NCBI GenBank assembly: GCA_964407865.1 | Contig: CAYOXC010000002.1 | Span: 120,646-184,645 of the forward strand | Direction of reading: 5' to 3' | Source: an uncultured Gammaproteobacteria bacterium | GTDB taxonomy: Bacteria > Patescibacteriota > Patescibacteriia > Magasanikbacterales > GWA2-37-8 | Length of the DNA stretch: 64,000 bases | Part shown: piece by piece, positions 2,839 to 47,331 of the stretch | Layout: each line of letters opens with the position of its first letter | How positions within the stretch are numbered: position 1 is the stretch's first letter | Notes under the pieces: generated by a model | Told to the model about the DNA's origin: nothing | Seen by the model: only the letters and a program-made list of their open reading frames with translations | Databases searched by the model: none | Program-made: the position numbers and the translations under genes

Positions 2839-2979
2839 GTCAAGCGTCTATTAGAGCGGATAGCTCTGTCTTTTGGGGCCCGCTTAAAATAAGATAATTT
2901 ATTTTATTCAAAATTTTTCGACGGCTGGATTACAAATCTGCACCGACCACTCGGAGCAGTGCCGTGAATAGTATTTAAT

Positions 2980-4170
2980 ATGGCTGAGTTTGTAAGAACC
3001 AAGCCACACGTCAATGTTGGTACTATTGGCCACGTTGACCACGGTAAGACTACTCTTACTGCTGCGATGTTGCAGGTTCTAACCGCTCATGGTATGAGCG
3101 CCCAGAAAAAGGGTGTTGATGATTTGGATAAGGCCCCAGAGTCAAAGGCTCGCGGCATTACCATTTCCACTGCCCATGTCGAATATGAGTCAGAAAAGCG
3201 TCACTATGCCCATGTAGACTGCCCAGGTCATGCTGATTATGTCAAAAACATGATTACCGGCGCGGCCCAGATGGACGGTGCTATTTTGGTTGTGTCCGCT
3301 GCCGACGGCCCAATGCCGCAGACTCGCGAACACATTCTCTTGGCTCGCCAGGTTGGCGTGCCTCACATTGTTGTTTTCTTAAACAAGGTTGATCAGGTTT
3401 CTGATCCAGAGCTAATTGATCTTGTTGAAGCGGAAATTCGCGATCTTTTGACAAAGTATGAATTTCCTGGAGATACCACTCCTATTATTCGCGGTTCAGC
3501 CCTTCAGGCTTTACAGAATCCGAATGATGAAAATGCGACAAAACCGATTATGGAGTTGGTTAAAACTTTGGATGAATATATTCCAGAGCCAGTTCGAGAA
3601 ACAGACAAGCCGTTCTTAATGCCGATTGAAGATGTCTTTTCAATCGAAGGCCGTGGAACAGTCGTTACCGGTCGTATTGAGCGCGGATTGATTCAAATAA
3701 ACGATGAGATTGAAATTGTCGGTTTGCTTGAGGAGCCAATGAAAACAGTTGTTACAGGTATTGAAATGTTTAACAAGCAACTGAAAGAAGGCCAAGCTGG
3801 AGATAATGCCGGCATTCTTTTGCGCGGTACCAAGAAAGAGCAAGTAGAGCGTGGTATGGTTTTGGCCAAACCCGGCTCAATTAAACCGCATACAGAGTAT
3901 GAAACTCAAGTTTATGTTTTAACCAAAGAAGAAGGTGGTCGACACAAACCATTCTTTAAGGGTTACAAGCCTCAGTTTTATATTCGAACCACTGATGTAA
4001 CTGGCGAGGTTTTATTGCCGGAAGGAACAGAAATGGTTATGCCTGGGGATACTATAAGTTTTATTGTTAAATTAATTAAGCCGGTTGCTATTGAGGAAAA
4101 AATGAAATTCGCTATTCGCGAAGGCGGAAGAACTGTTGGAGCCGGTGTTGTAACGAAGATTATTAAATAA
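2980..4170 (+). CDS. tuf: Elongation factor Tu
   Basis: [18 protein letters not shown] and NKVD GTPase motifs. 396 aa. Confidence 0.97.
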
Positions 4171-20856: not shown

Positions 20857-20934
20857 TATTTTACACTAAAATTAAGGTTAACTCAAGGAGTAACATTGAC
20901 ATTTATGTCTTAAAATGATAACATGTCGGCAATT

Positions 20935-23014: not shown

Positions 23015-23058
23015 ATAAAAAAAGCGTCTTGTGAATTATGCAGGCGCTTTTTTATTTT
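23015..23058. terminator. Bidirectional terminator between parB and the convergent rel gene
   Basis: aaaaaagcgtc...ggcgctttttt. Confidence 0.55.
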
Positions 23059-24608
23059 TTTAATTTATGTCGAGTAGATTCTTTTTTTGCCGCTGATAGT
23101 GGAATTATTGATTTGAGCCAATTTTTTTTGTCTGTATTAAGACTTTGTTTAATGCGTTGACGAGCGCTGTTTGTTTTAACAAAGTTTAACCAATCTCTAC
23201 CCGGTCCCTTGCGTTTTTTGTCTGTAATAATCTCTACAACATCTCCGCTTTTTAGGGGTGTATCAAGAGAAACAATTTGTTCGTTAACTATAGAGCCATT
23301 GCATTTATTACCTACTTCAGTGTGTATGTTATAAGCAAAATCCACAGGGGTGGCATCTTCTGGCAAGTCAATCACATCTCCCTTGGGTGTAAAGACAAAA
23401 ATACGATTATGAAAGAAATCAATTTTTAATGCGTCAAGGTCGGATAAGTTGGTTAAAACCTCTTTTTGTATTCTGGCCAGTTCTTTAGCCCATGAAATAT
23501 CTTTGGCCGGAGGTCGATAGCCGCTTTTGCGTTCGTCATAATGCCAGTGTGAGGCGATGCCAAATTCAGCTTCTTCGTGCATTTGTTCTGATCGTATTTG
23601 GAATTCAACGATTCTTCCGTCTTCGCAAAAAACTGTAGTGTGCAGTGATTTGTATCCGTTTGGTTTTGGTTGAGAAATATAATCTTTTATTCTTCCTTTA
23701 AGCGGCCGCCATAATTTATGAATTATGCCAAGTGCAGCATAACAGTCGCTAATATCATTAACAATAATTCTAATCGCCACCACATCGTGAACTTGACCAA
23801 CATCCCAATTTTTTTGTTTTAGTTTTGTATAAAGACTATATAGTTTTTTCGTTCGTCCGTGAATGTCAATAATTTTTATGTTATTTGCCTTAATTTCTTT
23901 TTTTGCTGTTGCTATGATGTGTTCTAGATAGGATTGACCTTCGGCAATAAAGTTTTCTCTAATATTTTTAACTCTTTCATAATCCTTTGGGTAGATATAT
24001 TTGAAGGATAAATCTTCAAGAAACCCTTTAAATTCGCCCATGCAAAGCCGGTTGGCAATTGGCGCAAATATTTCCAGGCTTTCCAAGGCTATCCGATGCT
24101 GCTTGTTAGGTGGCATAACATCAAGCGTCTGCAGGTTGTGAATACGATCAGCAAATTTTATTATCATAACGCGAATATCTTCGGCCATGGCAATAAAAGT
24201 TTTTCTGAGATTTTCAATATATCGTTCTACGCCTCGGTATTTCAAACGTCCAAGTTTGGTAATGCCTTTAACCATATTAGCTACATCAGTGCCAAAATTT
24301 TCTTCAATTTCCGCTATGGATACGCTAGTATCCTCGGGCACATCATGAAGCAGGGCAGCTATGATAATATTTACATCAATCCTCATAAGGGCGAGAATAT
24401 AGGCGGTACTCAAAGGATGATTAATATATGGTTCACCGTTTACCCGGGTTTGGTCGTGATGCGCTTTTTCGGCAAAATCATATGCCAACTGCGCCAGATC
24501 AATATCTCCTGGGTTGCAGTATTTTTTTAGTTCTTTCGCCAGCACTTCAATTGTCACCTGTTTAGGTAAGGCAATCTTAATTTCCATAATTTTAGCGATA
24601 ATAAGCAT
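23052..24608 (-). CDS. relA: Bifunctional (p)ppGpp synthetase/hydrolase of the Rel/SpoT family. Short form with HD, synthetase and TGS domains and no ACT domain.
   Basis: HDVPEDT HD motif, RelA_SpoT synthetase core and a TGS domain. 518 aa. Confidence 0.88.
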   Translation of the reverse strand: MLIIAKIMEIKIALPKQVTIEVLAKELKKYCNPGDIDLAQLAYDFAEKAHHDQTRVNGEPYINHPLSTAYILALMRIDVNIIIAALLHDVPEDTSVSIAEIEENFGTDVANMVKGITKLGRLKYRGVERYIENLRKTFIAMAEDIRVMIIKFADRIHNLQTLDVMPPNKQHRIALESLEIFAPIANRLCMGEFKGFLEDLSFKYIYPKDYERVKNIRENFIAEGQSYLEHIIATAKKEIKANNIKIIDIHGRTKKLYSLYTKLKQKNWDVGQVHDVVAIRIIVNDISDCYAALGIIHKLWRPLKGRIKDYISQPKPNGYKSLHTTVFCEDGRIVEFQIRSEQMHEEAEFGIASHWHYDERKSGYRPPAKDISWAKELARIQKEVLTNLSDLDALKIDFFHNRIFVFTPKGDVIDLPEDATPVDFAYNIHTEVGNKCNGSIVNEQIVSLDTPLKSGDVVEIITDKKRKGPGRDWLNFVKTNSARQRIKQSLNTDKKNWLKSIIPLSAAKKESTRHKLKK

Positions 24609-24649
24609 TTTTTTGAGCGACTATCTTATTGTATCCTGATGGTAAGGGC

Positions 24650-24678
24650 TTGACAAGGGGAGGAATTTATGCTATATT
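24650..24678 (+). promoter_or_regulatory. Near-consensus sigma70 promoter (TTGACA-N17-TATATT) on the plus strand. A divergent TTGTCA-N17-TACAAT promoter for rel overlaps it on the minus strand.
   Basis: Hexamers read directly. The core cttgacaag is palindromic. Confidence 0.5.
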
Positions 24679-24686
24679 AAGCGCAC

Positions 24687-24833
24687 GATGCTAAGGCCTT
24701 AGTGCCACAGACCCCTCCCCATTTTTTGGTGAGGGGTGCTGTTTTTTAATAACAAAAAGAGGACATAGATTATTGCTTTTAATAATATTTCGTGATAAAT
24801 TACTGACGCGGGGAGCGATTGGCCCTTAGCATC
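24687..24833 (+). ncRNA. Candidate structured ncRNA (6S-like?) between rel and topA
   Basis: The plus-strand promoter lies at 24650-24678. 5' gatgctaaggcc (24687-24698) is complementary to ggcccttagcatc (24821-24833). An internal hairpin+T-run lies at 24711-24748 and a terminal hairpin+T-run at 24871-24904. No ORF is present. Confidence 0.25.
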
Positions 24834-24870
24834 ACCTTAGGCATTAAGGTTCGCCCTTCGCCCCCGCAAT

Positions 24871-24904
24871 AAAAATCACCCCGATTAAGGGGTGATTTTT
24901 ATTT
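24871..24904. terminator. Bidirectional terminator (atcacccc gattaa ggggtgat flanked by A- and T-runs). It serves as the topA terminator on the minus strand.
   Basis: 8-bp perfect stem. Confidence 0.6.
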
Positions 24905-27142
24905 CTGTTTTTTTGTTTTTGTTGTTTTAGGCCGTGAAGCGCACTCTTTGTTGCTGCACATAACCGAACCTTTATTATTCTCTACCATTGATTCTTTGCA
25001 AATAGGGCACATCTCTCCGGTTGGTTTATCCCAAAGGGCAAAATCGCATTTAGGATAGCTACTACAACCATAAAAAATTTTACCGCGGCGAGTTTTTCGT
25101 TGAATAATGTCACCATCAGTACATTTAGGGCATTTTAAATTAAGTTTAATTTCTATACTTTTTATATTTTTACACTCCGGGTAGCCGCTACAGCTGATAA
25201 AAGGTCCATAACGACCAACTTTTTTAACCATAGGCGAACCGCATTTTTCACAAACATCATTTGAAGTTTCTTCAGAGACTGAAGCAAAAATTTCCTTTTC
25301 TTCTGTAGCAAGGGGTTTAGTGTTTTTACATTTTGGATATGCTGAGCAGGCTATAAAACGTCCAAACCTACCCATGCGAATAATCATTTCTGCGCCACAT
25401 TTTTCGCAGAGTTCATCAGTTTTTTCTTCAGTCAATTCTTTTTTAGACAATTCTTTATCTTTTTGATTGAGATTTTCAATAAATGGTTCATAAAAAGCGG
25501 CAATAACCGGTTGCCATTTTTTTTCACCTTGAGCAACAGCGTCCAGATCTTCTTCCATGCCGGCAGTAAATTTATAATCAACAATGTTCGGAAAGTGCTC
25601 AACTAAAAGGTCGTTGACTAAATAAGCAATTTCCTTAGGGAATAATTTCTTTTTTTCATCTCTTTCAACATAACCACGATCCTCAATAGTGGCGATGGTT
25701 GGTGCGTAGGTTGAAGGACGGCCAATGCCGTGTTCTTCAAGTACTTTAACTAATGTAGCGTCAGAGTATCTTCCAGGCGGTTCGGTAAAATGTTGTTCCG
25801 GTTTGATTTGTTCACAAATTATTGTTTCGCCATTTGTTACTTTTGGCAGAATATTTTCCTTAGTTTTTTCTGGATAAAGAATTAAAAATCCTTCAAATAC
25901 AATATTTTGTCCATTAGACCGAAATAGATAGTCGTTATTTGAACTAATATCAATTGAAGCATTATTGACTTTGGCTGCTGCCATTTGTGAAGCCAGAGCT
26001 CTTCGCCAAATTAAATCATAAAGTTTGTATTGATTTCTATCAAGAAAATCCTTTATTGATTCTGGATCGCGGTTGGCTTCTGTTGGGCGAATTGCTTCAT
26101 GGGCTTCTTGAGCTGTTTTACTTTTCGTTTTAAAAAGACGAGGTGAATCAATGGTGTATTTTTTGCCAAACTTATTAGAAACAGCATCTTTCGCGTCGGT
26201 AAGAAATTTTTCAGATAAATTTGTTGAATCGGTACGCATGTAAGTAATCAAACCAACCGACCCTTCAGCTCCGAGCTCAACACCTTCATAGAGTTGTTGG
26301 GCAATGCGCATGGTTTGTTTAGCCGAAAAACCGAGACGATGATTTGCTTCTTGTTGCAAAGTTGAAGTTATAAATGGAGGAGCAGGTAGCCGGTTAGTTA
26401 GCTTTTCTTCAGTATTAGAAACAGAATATGATGCATTATTTAAAGCAGAAAGAATTTTATCAACTTCAGCTTTTTTGCCTAAACTCATTTTTTCTAGTTT
26501 ACCCTCAGGAGTATTTATCAGTTTAGCCGGAAAAGTATCAATATTTTTTTTGTTAAAAAGTCCTTCAATTGACCAGTATTCCTCTGGTACAAAACTGTTA
26601 ATCTCTCTTTCTCTTTCAACAACTAAGCGCACAGCCACCGATTGAACACGACCAGCTGATAAGCCCTTAGCCACTTTACGCCACAGAAAAGGAGAAAGTT
26701 TATAACCGACTAAACGATCTAAAATACGTCGAGCCTGTTGAGCGTCTATTAACTTAATATCCAAACTGCGTGGATTTTTAATCGCTTTTTGAATTGCGTC
26801 TTTGGTAATTTCGTGAAAAGTGATGCGTTTAAGTTTTTTTGGATCAACCTTGAGAACAGTAGCCAAATGCCAAGAAATAGCCTCGCCTTCACGGTCTTCA
26901 TCAGTTGCAAAAAGGACTTGATCGCATTTAGCCATTTTTTCTCGAAGTTCTTTAACAATCTTCATTTTATCGCGAGAAACAGAATATTTTGGTTCAAAGT
27001 TGTTTTCAACATCAATACCGAGTTCGCGCTTCGGCAGATCCCGGATGTGGCCAAAAGAAGACTTCACGGTATAATCCTTGCTTAAGAATTTTGAGATAGT
27101 TTTAGCTTTGGCCGGCGACTCGACAATTACTAGTGTTTTCAT
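24899..27142 (-). CDS. topA: DNA topoisomerase I with C-terminal zinc ribbons
   Basis: A Toprim domain is followed by a Tyr active-site region and three CxxC...CxxC ribbons. 747 aa. Confidence 0.95.
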   Translation of the reverse strand: MKTLVIVESPAKAKTISKFLSKDYTVKSSFGHIRDLPKRELGIDVENNFEPKYSVSRDKMKIVKELREKMAKCDQVLFATDEDREGEAISWHLATVLKVDPKKLKRITFHEITKDAIQKAIKNPRSLDIKLIDAQQARRILDRLVGYKLSPFLWRKVAKGLSAGRVQSVAVRLVVEREREINSFVPEEYWSIEGLFNKKNIDTFPAKLINTPEGKLEKMSLGKKAEVDKILSALNNASYSVSNTEEKLTNRLPAPPFITSTLQQEANHRLGFSAKQTMRIAQQLYEGVELGAEGSVGLITYMRTDSTNLSEKFLTDAKDAVSNKFGKKYTIDSPRLFKTKSKTAQEAHEAIRPTEANRDPESIKDFLDRNQYKLYDLIWRRALASQMAAAKVNNASIDISSNNDYLFRSNGQNIVFEGFLILYPEKTKENILPKVTNGETIICEQIKPEQHFTEPPGRYSDATLVKVLEEHGIGRPSTYAPTIATIEDRGYVERDEKKKLFPKEIAYLVNDLLVEHFPNIVDYKFTAGMEEDLDAVAQGEKKWQPVIAAFYEPFIENLNQKDKELSKKELTEEKTDELCEKCGAEMIIRMGRFGRFIACSAYPKCKNTKPLATEEKEIFASVSEETSNDVCEKCGSPMVKKVGRYGPFISCSGYPECKNIKSIEIKLNLKCPKCTDGDIIQRKTRRGKIFYGCSSYPKCDFALWDKPTGEMCPICKESMVENNKGSVMCSNKECASRPKTTKTKKQK

Positions 27143-32748: not shown

Positions 32749-32777
32749 TTGACATTTTGTCTAAAATATGCTATAAA
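32749..32777 (+). promoter_or_regulatory. Sigma70-like promoter (TTGACA-N17-TATAAA) for ORF 32848
   Basis: Hexamers read directly. An AGGAGG Shine-Dalgarno sequence precedes the ATG. Confidence 0.55.
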
Positions 32778-46033: not shown

Positions 46034-46062
46034 TTGACAAATTAGCCTTTTTTTGCTATATT
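46034..46062 (+). promoter_or_regulatory. Near-consensus sigma70 promoter (TTGACA-N17-TATATT)
   Basis: Read directly. Confidence 0.55.
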
Positions 46063-46121: not shown

Positions 46122-46325
46122 ATGAAGAAAGCAGAAAAAAAAGACTTAGAGGTTTACGAACCAAGGCGCAAAGGCACCTATCGACAACGTCGGCAGAAGC
46201 CGGCAGACCGCCCGTCCTGGCACCCGGAGATGTTGGACACTTTCGAGAGTTCGAATTACTACGACGAGCCGGAGCTCAGCCAGGAGGAGATTCGCCTCAT
46301 CCGGCGGATCAACGACGCCTCTTAG
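46122..46325 (+). CDS. GC-rich small orphan protein (67 aa; alternative start at 46074 gives 83 aa), hypothetical
   Basis: AGGAGG sits 6 nt before the ATG at 46122. GC is about 55-60%. Two terminators follow. Confidence 0.45.
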   Translation: MKKAEKKDLEVYEPRRKGTYRQRRQKPADRPSWHPEMLDTFESSNYYDEPELSQEEIRLIRRINDAS

Positions 46326-46422: not shown

Positions 46423-47331
46423 TTAAGCCCCCATTGTTCTTAATTTCTTTATTCTCTCTTCCACTGGCGGGTGGGTGCTGAAAAGCGAAGCGAATTTTTT
46501 ACGACTGCCCCTGAATGGGCTTGAAATAAAAAGATGAGCTGTGGCAGATGAGGCGCGTTGCATCGGTTGGTTTTCGTGAGCGATTTTTTCCAAGGCATTG
46601 GCTAAGCCGTCAGGGTAGCGAGTGAGAAGAGCGCCTGAAGCATCAGCTAAATATTCGCGTTTGCGAGATATGGCAAGTTTTATTATTTCCGCAATAAAAG
46701 GGGATAGTATTGCGAGAACTATGCCAACAATCATTAAAATCACAAATAATTGCGAGCCTTCGTTTCGATTATTGCTACGGCCGCGAAATAAACCGCCGGA
46801 GCGAAGCATAATATTAGCCAGGATTACAATAGAACCAACCATTACAGCAACAAGCATCATAAAACGAATATCGTAATTTTTAATGTGTGATAGTTCGTGG
46901 GCTATTACTCCTTCCAACTCACTGCTTTCAAGTTTTTCTATTGCCCCTCGGGTCAGAGCGATAGAGGCAGTTTTTGGATCTCGGCCAGTTGCAAAAGCGT
47001 TGATGGCTGAATCTTCAATAATATAAATTTTTGGCACGGGCAAACCCGAAGCAATGCAAAGATTCTCTACCAAATGATAAACCCCTTCGTTTTCATCATG
47101 ACTGATTGGTTTGGCGCCAGTAGCAGACAGGGCAATTTTATCGCCAGAAAAATAAGAAACCATTGTCATCACTAGAGCGATGAGAAAAGCAAAAATTACA
47201 CCGCTGTAGCCTCTGCCATTGCCATATAGCTGATCAAAAGTCCAGCCAAGTAAAATAATGATGGCGATAAACAAGGAAACAAGAATCAATGATTTTCTTT
47301 TGTTTGAAGTTATTTCGTTGTACATAAACAA
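46423..47331 (-). CDS. htpX: Zinc metalloprotease HtpX (M48)
   Basis: HELSHIKNYD HExxH motif. 4 TM helices. Confidence 0.9.
   Translation of the reverse strand: MFMYNEITSNKRKSLILVSLFIAIIILLGWTFDQLYGNGRGYSGVIFAFLIALVMTMVSYFSGDKIALSATGAKPISHDENEGVYHLVENLCIASGLPVPKIYIIEDSAINAFATGRDPKTASIALTRGAIEKLESSELEGVIAHELSHIKNYDIRFMMLVAVMVGSIVILANIMLRSGGLFRGRSNNRNEGSQLFVILMIVGIVLAILSPFIAEIIKLAISRKREYLADASGALLTRYPDGLANALEKIAHENQPMQRASSATAHLFISSPFRGSRKKFASLFSTHPPVEERIKKLRTMGA

What the first reader, a model, noticed from the sequence alone, without database searches (positions are those of the whole stretch)
24609..24904. Candidate structured ncRNA (6S-like?) with divergent promoters between rel and topA
Plus strand: TTGACA-N17-TATATT (24650-24678), then ~220 nt with no ORF. 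There is long-range complementarity: gatgctaaggcc (24687-24698) against ggcccttagcatc (24821-24833). An internal hairpin+T-run lies at 24711-24748 and a strong terminal hairpin+T-run at 24871-24904. A closing stem formed by the 5' and 3' ends around an internal region resembles 6S RNA architecture. Alternatively, a ~60-nt sRNA ends at the first terminator. The window otherwise lacks any housekeeping ncRNA (6S, SRP, RNase P, tmRNA).
Basis: seen in the sequence. Interest (0 to 1): 0.5.

Follow-up and report, generated by a model that had tools for sequence, protein, structure and literature searches.

The report
Two tandem base-pairing small RNA genes
The gap between the topA and rel genes of this uncultivated Patescibacteria (Magasanikbacteria-like) genome does not hold one 6S-like RNA but two separate small RNA genes, conserved in about 15 related genomes, whose mutual complementarity has been kept by matching mutations on both sides; the family is not in Rfam and its function is unknown.

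Summary
The 290-nt topA-rel spacer carries two plus-strand transcription units. sRNA-1 runs ~24685-24748: a consensus extended -10 promoter, a 5' single-stranded stretch of about 25 nt, and a terminator. sRNA-2 runs ~24808-24910: its own TGn-extended -10 promoter, a 60-nt bulged hairpin, and a terminator shared with topA. About 15 related loci have both units. In six of them, 260-450 nt of other promoter/terminator units lie between the two, so they are separate RNAs. The 5' end of sRNA-1 pairs with the upper 5' strand of the sRNA-2 hairpin (window GAUGCUAAGG: CCUUAGCAUC). Five pairs show changes on both sides, two lineages carry compensated indels, and at most 1 of 500 shuffles reaches the observed values. 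The sRNA-2 closing stem also covaries. There are no Rfam or ARAGORN matches. The most likely mechanism is an sRNA with a dedicated partner (sponge or switch) RNA. Expression, targets and function are untested, and predicted duplex energetics are only marginal. The sRNA-1 and rel promoters are back-to-back and share a palindromic -35. Interest is moderate: a new sRNA family in a lineage with almost no known riboregulators.

The parts
24628..24656 (-). Putative rel promoter: -35 TTGTCA (24656 to 24651), 17-nt spacer, -10 TACAAT (24633 to 24628). It is back-to-back with the sRNA-1 promoter and shares the palindromic -35 CTTGACAAG.
   Evidence: 10 of 12 positions. The same TTGTCA-17-TA(C/A/G)AAT arrangement can be read in L084, L086, L088, L090, L093, L099 and L101 (sequences). 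Function is inferred.
24650..24678 (+). sRNA-1 promoter: TTGACA, 17-nt spacer ending in TG, TATATT.
   Evidence: 11 of 12, TG present. It is conserved as TTGACAAG...TGnTAnnnT in every homolog. The pattern is over-represented in the window and also used before tRNA genes.
24685..24748 (+). sRNA-1 (module 1), about 64 nt: a 5' single-stranded conserved stretch followed by an intrinsic terminator. The ends are inferred from the promoter spacing and the U-run.
   Evidence: The short reading frame in it is not conserved (my reading of the sequences).
24687..24698 (+). Segment A of sRNA-1 (GAUGCUAAGGCC). It pairs in trans with segment A' of sRNA-2. In most homologs it starts 2 nt earlier (GUGAUG...).
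   Evidence: 10 nt perfect. (covariation). (cognate duplexes are better than non-cognate ones).
24697..24706 (+). Segment B of sRNA-1 (CCUUAGUGCC). It is conserved and complementary to the invariant GGCAUUAAGG of sRNA-2, but this pairing has no covariation support.
   Evidence: 86% of cells paired, 0 double changes. It is absent in L007, and L088 has a C-A mismatch.
24711..24748 (+). Intrinsic terminator of sRNA-1 (ACCCCUCCCCA / UGGUGAGGGGU, then GCUGUUUUUU).
   Evidence: Every homolog has a different GC-rich hairpin followed by a U-run at this place.
24773..24801 (+). sRNA-2 promoter: TTGCTT, 17-nt spacer ending in TGA, TAAATT. It lies 6 nt before the G that opens the sRNA-2 hairpin.
   Evidence: Read. 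A TGn-extended -10 lies 6-8 nt before the first G of the closing stem in all homologs. It falls below the 9-of-12 cut-off of the scan.
24808..24867 (+). sRNA-2 core: a 60-nt bulged hairpin. P1 is 24808-24818 with 24857-24867. P1b is GGC 24821-24823 with GCC 24853-24855. P2 is CCUUAG 24824-24829 with UUAAGG 24844-24849. P3 is CC 24835-24836 with GG 24840-24841, closing a variable triloop at 24837-24839.
   Evidence: alignment and RNAalifold. (96% of cells paired, 8 pairs with double changes, 0 of 500 shuffles). CM R1 scores 85-95 bits in homologs.
24821..24835 (+). Segment A' of sRNA-2 (GGCCCUUAGCAUCAC): the 5' strand of P2 plus the CAUCA internal loop. It is the docking site for the sRNA-1 5' end.
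24840..24852 (+). Segment GGCAUUAAGGUUC, invariant across the close homologs (diverged in L007 and L022; UUA instead of UUC in L101). It forms the 3' strand of P2/P3 plus a 3-nt bulge. It is released if A:A' forms. Its ligand is unknown.
   Evidence: invariant columns.
24868..24913 (+). Terminator of sRNA-2: a perfect 15-bp stem at 24868-24903 followed by a T-rich tail. On the minus strand the same hairpin follows the topA stop codon (24899-24901), so it is probably bidirectional.
   Evidence: Homologs have unrelated hairpins with flanking A- and T-runs at the same place.

Best explanation
The spacer encodes two independently transcribed small non-coding RNAs on the plus strand. sRNA-1 (~64 nt, ~24685-24748) is a classic trans-acting sRNA in its layout: a strong sigma-70-type extended -10 promoter, an unstructured conserved 5' end, and an intrinsic terminator. 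sRNA-2 (~100 nt, ~24808-24910) is a 60-nt bulged hairpin with its own promoter and terminator. The first 10-13 nt of sRNA-1 base-pair in trans with the CAUCA internal loop and the 5' strand of the upper stem (P2) of sRNA-2. I infer that docking starts at the single-stranded internal loop, then invades P2 and releases the near-invariant 3' strand GGCAUUAAGGUUC. Functionally the two form a dedicated sRNA/partner-RNA pair. Either sRNA-2 sequesters the sRNA-1 seed (a sponge or anti-sRNA), or sRNA-1 switches sRNA-2 between a closed and an open form. What is shown: sequence conservation, promoter and terminator signals, the absence of a conserved ORF, covariation of the sRNA-2 stems, and covariation of the trans helix. 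What is inferred: transcription itself, the RNA ends, the direction of regulation, and any link to rel. The sRNA-1 promoter shares its -35 with the putative rel promoter, so the two promoters may compete for RNA polymerase.
For: Separate units: each module has a conserved promoter and a hairpin plus U-run whose stem sequence differs between homologs. In L083, L086, L087, L099, L100 and L101, 260-450 nt carrying other promoter/terminator units lie between the modules. Conservation: both modules occur in about 15 distinct loci whose Rel proteins are 60-83% identical to the window's. CM R1 gives 85-95 bits for close homologs, 29.7 bits for L007 and 16.7 bits for L022. Trans helix A:A' has 13 pairs, 84.6% of cells paired, and 5 pairs (8 cells) changed on both sides. 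At most 1 of 500 shuffles reaches the observed values on four of the five measures; the count of further pair types is reached by 57 of 500. Slid controls pair 30-56% of cells. Examples: window GAUGCUAAGG/CCUUAGCAUC, L086 GAUGUUAAG/CUUAACAUC, L093 GAUACAAA/UUUGUAUC, L007 GGUGAUAUUUGGG/CCCAAAUAUCACC. L083 has one extra A:U pair inserted on both sides. L022 has GUUGAUGCUAGG/CCUAGCAUCAAC with indels on both sides. In two lineages (L093, L100) the A-to-U change at alignment column 64 of sRNA-2 breaks the cis helix P2 but is matched by a U-to-A change in sRNA-1. Three of the four non-Watson-Crick cells in the core of the helix are U.G on the plus strand, which fits RNA of this strand. Cognate duplexes average -18.7 kcal/mol against -15.1 for non-cognate pairs. 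The sRNA-2 hairpin has 96% of cells paired and 8 pairs with double changes, with 0 of 500 shuffles reaching that count. The pair stays together in L022, where it is not next to the rel promoter. No known RNA family matches.
Against: There are no expression data, so the transcripts and their ends are inferred from sequence signals only. RNAcofold gives only -5 to +2 kcal/mol net gain for the trans duplex over sRNA-2's own hairpin. The interaction is therefore not predicted to dominate without a chaperone, co-transcriptional timing or extra contacts. No convincing mRNA target was found for the sRNA-1 seed in the window or among neighbouring genes, so a sponge role has no known regulon behind it. 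The homologs are related sequences, and several double changes come from the two most divergent members (L007, L093). The shuffle control does not correct for phylogeny. L090 has a U-U mismatch in the helix. The window's own complementarity is only about 3% unusual by itself. The family is narrow and patchy: L001-L006 and L102, with Rel 62-67% identical, lack sRNA-2 at this locus.
Confidence: 0.68

Rival explanations
1. One 6S-like (or otherwise housekeeping) structured RNA of about 220 nt. It would be transcribed from the 24650 promoter through the first hairpin to the 24904 terminator, and closed by the 24687/24824 stem.
For: The long-range complementarity is real and conserved. The plus-strand fold of the whole region is well below shuffles (z = -6.4). 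In the window, L081, L084, L088, L090, L092, L093 and L103 the two halves are only 30-100 nt apart, so some read-through could give a single RNA.
Against: No 6S, SRP, RNase P or tmRNA model matches, even at E<=10. The minimum-free-energy fold of the whole region does not use the long-range stem. A conserved terminator follows nt ~27-64. A conserved extended -10 promoter precedes the 3' half. Six homologs have 260-450 nt of other units between the halves. There is no long helix with a central bubble.
Confidence: 0.04
2. The complementary segments are DNA-level inverted repeats rather than RNA partners. They would be either half-sites or operators for a DNA-binding protein, or the ends of an invertible DNA segment that carries the sRNA-2 promoter.
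For: Inverted repeats kept identical by protein recognition or gene conversion would also show changes on both sides. The spacer sits at a promoter-dense region next to rel. A third, imperfect copy (24637-24649) lies in the rel/sRNA-1 promoter region.
Against: The repeat spacing varies from about 120 to about 600 bp, which is unlike an operator. No recombinase gene lies nearby. All ~15 homologs have the same orientation of the intervening segment. One repeat falls at about +1 to +13 of a promoter-terminator unit, and the other inside a hairpin that covaries on its own. Three of the four mismatches are U.G on the plus strand. The third copy is not conserved in L081 or L082.
Confidence: 0.07
3. 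The two are independent sRNAs, or sRNA-1 plus a protein-binding hairpin RNA, that do not interact functionally. The complementarity would be a by-product of the shared CUUAG/CUAAG-type motifs, and each RNA would act on its own targets.
For: The predicted net binding energy is marginal. The sRNA-2 3' strand is invariant, as expected for a protein or other ligand site. L001 appears to carry an sRNA-1-like gene without sRNA-2 at the locus. The second complementarity B:B' shows no covariation.
Against: Compensatory substitutions and compensated indels in A:A' occur in several lineages, including changes that damage the cis helix. The two genes remain adjacent even where the context differs (L022, L104).
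Confidence: 0.15
4. The conserved elements are cis-acting minus-strand features: a topA 3' UTR or a structured rel leader.
For: Both flanking genes are on the minus strand, and the minus-strand fold is also more stable than shuffles (z = -3.8).
Against: The conserved minus-strand promoter (TTGTCA-17-TACAAT) lies downstream of both modules, so they are not in the rel leader. On the minus strand the hairpins are preceded, not followed, by U-runs. The U.G wobbles would be non-pairing C-A on the minus strand. The plus-strand promoters are conserved.
Confidence: 0.04

Closest known systems
Trans-acting bacterial sRNAs with a 5' seed and an intrinsic terminator (such as RybB or OmrA/B; from my own knowledge)
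   Same: sRNA-1 has its own promoter, a conserved unstructured 5' end that starts at or near +1, a GC-rich terminator hairpin with a U-tail, no conserved ORF, and a length of about 64 nt.
   Different: There is no sequence or Rfam relationship. No mRNA target was identified. The host is a Patescibacterium, where no chaperone for such RNAs is known. The only partner supported by covariation is another sRNA.
sRNA sponges / anti-sRNAs (SroC for GcvB, PMC4474525; AgvB, 3'ETS-leuZ and RosA from my own knowledge)
   Same: One RNA carries a site complementary to the seed of a regulatory sRNA and could titrate it.
   Different: As far as I know, sponges are often derived from mRNAs, tRNA spacers or prophages, and are not usually encoded next to their sRNA. 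Here the partner is a stand-alone structured RNA gene in tandem with the sRNA, and it co-evolves with it. Its docking site is partly buried in a hairpin whose other strand is invariant, which suggests a switch rather than simple titration. Function is untested.
6S RNA (Rfam RF00013)
   Same: It is a non-coding RNA transcribed from a strong promoter, and it shows long-range complementarity between distant segments.
   Different: There is no model match. It is not one transcript. There is no extended helix with a central bubble. See the membership test.
Type I toxin-antitoxin loci and other co-located RNA-RNA pairs
   Same: Two adjacent small transcription units whose RNAs are complementary over 10-13 nt.
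   Different: Neither unit has a conserved toxin ORF: frames shift between homologs (L083 has a 1-nt insertion relative to the window). Both genes are on the same strand rather than overlapping or divergent.

Membership tests
6S RNA | Match to the 6S covariance model(s) of Rfam | tested here: not met
   No 6S match at gathering score in the window, and none at E<=10 with permissive filters on 24450-25050.
6S RNA | A single transcript of about 180-200 nt whose 5' and 3' ends form a closing stem around a large central bubble | tested here: not met
   An internal conserved terminator and a second conserved promoter split the region. Homologs have 260-450 nt of other units between the halves. The minimum-free-energy fold lacks the closing stem.
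6S RNA | Binds sigma-70 RNA polymerase holoenzyme and templates pRNA synthesis | not testable with these tools
   Needs biochemistry.
SRP RNA / RNase P RNA / tmRNA | Match to the Rfam models, or ARAGORN for tmRNA | tested here: not met
   Homologous loci also give nothing.
Trans-acting sRNA with intrinsic terminator | Own promoter and own Rho-independent terminator, both conserved in position | tested here: met
   for the window. All homologs keep the promoter and a hairpin plus U-run with different stem sequences. This is sequence evidence only.
Trans-acting sRNA with intrinsic terminator | No conserved protein-coding frame | tested here: met
   The mini-frame AUG CUA AGG CCU UAG in sRNA-1 is lost in L081 and L088. 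A frame through sRNA-2 is broken by a 1-nt indel in L083, L087 and L092 (sequences).
Trans-acting sRNA with intrinsic terminator | The RNA is expressed at the predicted size | not testable with these tools
   No transcriptome data are available.
Trans-acting sRNA with intrinsic terminator | Conserved seed with identifiable mRNA targets | tested here: inconclusive
   The seed is conserved. No target stands out in the 64-kb window or among the start regions of neighbouring genes. The rest of the genome was not available.
sRNA / sponge (anti-sRNA) pair | The partner RNA carries a site complementary to the sRNA seed, maintained in evolution | tested here: met
   A:A' helix: 5 pairs with double changes, at most 1 of 500 shuffles reaching that count, and compensated indels in L083 and L022. 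Cognate duplexes beat non-cognate ones.
sRNA / sponge (anti-sRNA) pair | Pairing lowers the activity or stability of the sRNA in vivo | not testable with these tools
   Needs genetics or biochemistry. The predicted net energy is marginal.
Type I toxin-antitoxin | A small conserved toxin ORF in one of the two RNAs | tested here: not met
   No conserved ORF.
Invertible DNA switch | Inverted repeats flanking a segment found in both orientations, with a site-specific recombinase nearby | tested here: not met
   The orientation is the same in all ~15 loci, and no recombinase gene lies in the flanks.

The most novel reading that the evidence does not exclude
The two RNAs form a dedicated bipartite riboregulatory switch tied to the stringent-response gene rel. 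sRNA-1 is fired from a promoter that shares its -35 with the rel promoter, so RNA polymerase chooses one direction or the other. Its 5' end opens the sRNA-2 hairpin and exposes the invariant GGCAUUAAGGUUC segment. That segment then acts on a conserved protein or RNA target, possibly in a three-helix complex that also uses the B:B' complementarity. This would be a two-RNA device of a kind not described in bacteria, and the first riboregulator characterised in Patescibacteria.
Probability: 0.12. Interest if true: 0.75.

Novelty: new member of a known kind. Interest (0 to 1): 0.5.

Why it matters
Patescibacteria (CPR) have tiny genomes, are almost all uncultivated, and have essentially no described regulatory RNAs. 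My literature searches found none. This locus offers a compact pair of RNAs supported by covariation, with a defined interaction surface, next to the only (p)ppGpp synthetase/hydrolase gene seen in the window. If the pair is expressed, it would give a first handle on post-transcriptional control in this lineage. It would also be a clean natural example of a stand-alone sRNA co-evolving with a dedicated partner RNA. It also shows that the topA-rel spacer of this clade collects small non-coding transcription units. A third, unclassified unit of about 350 nt sits there in relatives.

Tried and rejected
(1) Rfam at gathering score on the window, and permissive E-value scans on the region and on three homologous spacers. 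Only terminator-driven sub-threshold matches came up (rimP, Phe leader, STnc370 and the like).

(2) ARAGORN for one-piece or two-piece tmRNA: nothing.

(3) The first genome-contig scan with the single Rel protein found nothing. The close homologs came from the look-up of encoding contigs and from one metagenome DNA-pattern scan, 6 of whose 11 hits were chance matches in coding DNA.

(4) Target search for the sRNA-1 seed. The best window hit, 46531-46570(+), is antisense to an ORF and was dismissed. Start regions of topA, rel, parA, parB and dprA in 8 genomes show no consistent complementarity. Motif counts for target-like sites equal chance.

(5) Small-peptide reading of sRNA-1 (leaderless AUG CUA AGG CCU UAG) and of sRNA-2: rejected because the frames are not conserved.

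(6) SRP-like, T-loop or tRNA-like readings of sRNA-2: considered from memory of the consensus motifs and rejected (no model match; the UUCGC/UUCAC/UUAAC variants do not fit a T-loop).

(7) The second complementarity B:B' (24697-24706 with 24840-24849) is 86% paired but shows no double changes and is absent in L007, so it is not claimed. I judged that A:A' and B:B' together form a crossing (pseudoknot-type) topology that RNAcofold cannot score, so that complex could not be evaluated.

(8) The third partial repeat at 24637-24649 is specific to the window and not conserved.

(9) The ~350-nt unit 3 found in relatives has no conserved ORF and no Rfam hit. It was not pursued because it is absent from the window.
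Full report
**Observation.**
The region 24609-24904 is the spacer between two minus-strand genes. One is rel, a short RelA/SpoT homolog with HD, synthetase and TGS domains (23052-24587; an upstream in-frame ATG lies at 24608). The other is topA (24899-27142). Homologs of the Rel protein are named Candidatus Magasanikbacteria or Patescibacteria by their sources. The neighbourhood is dprA-topA-[spacer]-rel-parB-parA-tRNA-Leu.

- The plus-strand promoter TTGACA-17-TATATT, with a TG extension (11 of 12 positions).
- The 10-nt perfect complementarity 24687-24696 / 24824-24833.
- The hairpin plus T-run at 24711-24748.
- The perfect 15-bp hairpin 24868-24903 with a T-run.
- The absence of ORFs.
- The absence of any Rfam family other than tRNAs in the window.

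Taken alone, the long-range repeat is only mildly unusual: 2.8% of dinucleotide shuffles do as well. The terminal hairpin overlaps the topA stop codon and has A- and T-runs on either side, so it probably terminates both convergent transcripts.

**Known families.**
Permissive Rfam scans of the region give only weak, terminator-driven matches. ARAGORN finds no tmRNA. The same holds for homologous spacers.

**Comparative evidence.**
I collected the topA-rel spacers of relatives in three ways:
- Exact-protein look-ups of close Rel homologs.
- One metagenome scan with ATCACCNNNGGCATTAAGGTTC. It gave 5 true loci, two of them duplicates, and 6 chance hits.
- A profile scan of GTDB genomes.

Aligning them shows that the spacer is made of two conserved modules on the window's plus strand. 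Each module has its own promoter and its own hairpin plus U-run.

Module 1 (sRNA-1) has three parts:
- The promoter CTTGACAAG-N-TGnTAnnnT.
- About 7 nt further on, the conserved 5' sequence (GU)GAUGCUAAGGCUUAGUGCCGCA.
- A GC-rich terminator hairpin whose sequence differs in nearly every lineage.

Module 2 (sRNA-2) has these parts:
- A TGn-extended -10 element 6-8 nt before a G.
- A 60-nt element: GCGGGGAGCGAUUGGCCCUUAGCAUCACC-NNN-GGCAUUAAGGUUCGCCCUUCGCCCCCGC.
- A terminator.

In the window the module 2 promoter is TTGCTT(24773-24778)-17-TAAATT(24796-24801), with TG at 24793-24794 (read).

In L083, L086, L087, L099, L100 and L101 the two modules are separated by 260-450 nt. That stretch has further promoter-like and terminator elements. 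This rules out a single RNA closed by the long-range stem.

A covariance model of the module 2 core (R1) scores 85-95 bits in close homologs. It also finds diverged copies in L007 (29.7 bits) and L022 (16.7 bits, directly downstream of an sRNA-1-like gene).

The promoter pattern TTGACA-N14-TGnTAnnnT is rare in the window: 7 hits with at most one mismatch, against 1.5 expected. It also precedes tRNA genes.

**Structure of sRNA-2.**
RNAalifold and explicit pair counting support an extended bulged hairpin:
- P1 is 10 bp with a 1-nt bulge.
- A 2x2 pyrimidine internal loop follows.
- P1b is GGY/RCC.
- P2 is CCUUAG/UUAAGG, with a UUC bulge.
- A CAUCA/CA internal loop follows.
- P3 is CC/GG, closing a variable triloop.

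Across 12 sequences, 96% of cells are paired and 8 pairs show changes on both sides. None of 500 shuffles reaches that count. Almost all of the covariation is in P1 and P1b. P2 has a single double change.

**The trans helix.**
The 5' end of sRNA-1 is complementary to the CAUCA(C) loop plus the 5' strand of P2. On a joint alignment (A5), the 13 intermolecular pairs are 84.6% paired. Five pairs (8 cells) are changed on both sides. At most 1 of 500 shuffles reaches the observed values on four of the five measures. Slid registers pair only 30-56% of cells (a 10-sequence version is).

The cognate pairs by lineage are:

| Locus | sRNA-1 segment A | sRNA-2 segment A' | Note |
|---|---|---|---|
| window | GAUGCUAAGG | CCUUAGCAUC | |
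| L086 | GAUGUUAAG | CUUAACAUC | |
| L100 | GUGAUGUAAAG | CUUUGCAUCAC | |
| L093 | GAUACAAA | UUUGUAUC | |
| L083/L087/L092 | GUGAUGUUAAAGG | CCUUUAGCAUCAC | one base pair inserted on both sides |
| L007 | GGUGAUAUUUGGG | CCCAAAUAUCACC | |
| L022 | GUUGAUGCUAGG | CCUAGCAUCAAC | one pair inserted and one deleted on both sides |

In L093 and L100 an A-to-U change in sRNA-2 breaks the cis helix P2. It is matched by a U-to-A change in sRNA-1, which argues that selection acts on the trans pairing. Three of the four non-Watson-Crick cells in the helix core are U.G on the plus strand. Cognate duplex energies are better than non-cognate ones (-18.7 against -15.1 kcal/mol on average), most clearly for L093 and L007.

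A second complementarity links sRNA-1 CCUUAGUGCC to the invariant GGCAUUAAGG of sRNA-2. It is 86% paired but has no double change and is missing in L007, so I do not claim it.

**Caveats.**
- Nothing here shows transcription.
- RNAcofold predicts that the trans duplex gains only -5 to +2 kcal/mol over sRNA-2's own hairpin.
- The shuffle controls ignore phylogeny, and a good part of the double changes come from the most divergent members.
- No mRNA target for sRNA-1 emerged in the window or among the conserved neighbours.
- The distribution is narrow and patchy. Several Magasanikbacteria-type loci (L002-L006, L102) have short spacers without the modules. L001 seems to keep only an sRNA-1-like gene.

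**Mechanism proposed.**
sRNA-1 and sRNA-2 are separate small RNAs that pair through the sRNA-1 5' end. Docking would start at the exposed CAUCA internal loop and then invade P2. That would free the invariant GGCAUUAAGGUUC strand. Two functional readings fit:
- sRNA-2 is a dedicated sponge for the sRNA-1 seed.
- sRNA-1 is the trigger that opens sRNA-2.

The pair stays adjacent even where the surroundings differ. In L022 it lies behind an AAA+ gene. In L104 an extra ORF sits between topA and sRNA-2.

In the window and at least seven relatives the sRNA-1 promoter and a minus-strand TTGTCA-17-TACAAT promoter reading into rel share one palindromic -35 (CTTGACAAG) (sequences). Competition between the two directions is therefore plausible but untested.

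**Comparison and novelty.**
In form, sRNA-1 resembles 5'-seed sRNAs with intrinsic terminators. The pair resembles sRNA/sponge systems such as GcvB/SroC (PMC4474525). Here, however, the partner is a stand-alone structured RNA gene in tandem, and it co-evolves with the sRNA. It is not a 6S RNA, SRP RNA, RNase P RNA, tmRNA or type I toxin-antitoxin locus (see the membership tests). The DNA-level rival (operators or an invertible segment) is disfavoured by four observations:
- The variable spacing of the repeats.
- The constant orientation of the intervening segment.
- The lack of a recombinase gene.
- The position of the repeats within transcription units.

I class the finding as a new family of a known kind of element, of moderate interest. 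The main reasons for interest are that it lies in a lineage with no described riboregulators and that its interaction surface can be tested directly.

Noticed in passing
L099:~2960-3330, L100:~2950-3330, L101:~3000-3320, L086:~3000-3330, L083:~2860-3230, L087:~3120-3330 (minus strand of each locus, approximate); absent from the window: A third non-coding unit of about 260-450 nt lies between sRNA-1 and sRNA-2 in these relatives. It has its own TTGAC-type promoter and a strong terminator. L099, L100 and L101 share blocks such as CCUUUACAUAGGCACAACCCAAACCCGGGG and CAUGCAACGGGUAGCGGCUCCUCGCC. It has no conserved ORF and no Rfam or ARAGORN match, so it may be another unclassified ncRNA.
   Followed up: partly
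window 24628-24678: The sRNA-1 and putative rel promoters are back-to-back and share a palindromic -35 (CTTGACAAG), with -10 boxes 17 bp away on either side. The arrangement recurs in at least seven related loci. It implies mutually exclusive RNA polymerase binding.
   Followed up: partly
window 23052-24587 (minus): The Rel protein is short (511 aa, or 518 aa from the upstream ATG). It has HD, RelA_SpoT and TGS domains, with no Pfam match to the C-terminal regulatory domains that I expect in long RSH enzymes. Homologs in this clade are all about 500 aa.
   Followed up: no
window 20896-20924, 63119-63147, 46034-46062, 32749-32777: The same strong promoter pattern (TTGACA-N14-TGnTAnnnT) precedes tRNA-Leu and, with one mismatch, tRNA-Glu. 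At 46034 it precedes a small, highly charged ORF (ATG at 46123 after GAGGAGGGGAGAGAGA, stop at 46325). At 32749 it precedes a gene with an AAAGGAGG ribosome-binding site.
   Followed up: partly
window 24637-24649: A third imperfect copy of the repeat (TGATGGTAAGGGC, 12 of 13 complementary to 24822-34) lies in the spacer of the rel promoter. It is not conserved in L081 or L082, so it is probably chance.
   Followed up: yes
L104:5010-6011 (minus): A reverse-transcriptase (RVT_1) gene of 333 aa lies immediately downstream of rel in this relative, displacing parB. It may belong to a retron or a group II intron.
   Followed up: no
L083:~3320-3420 (minus strand): A long inverted repeat (CCCCCCACCACUUUUGG ... 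CCAAAAGUGGUGGUGGG, with about 90 nt between the arms) lies between the sRNA-1 promoter and rel in L083 only.
   Followed up: no
L022:2480-2590 (minus strand): Directly after the diverged sRNA-2 there is another consensus promoter (TTGACA-N17-TATAAT) followed about 15 nt later by a 7-bp hairpin and a U-run. This looks like a very short extra transcription unit.
   Followed up: no
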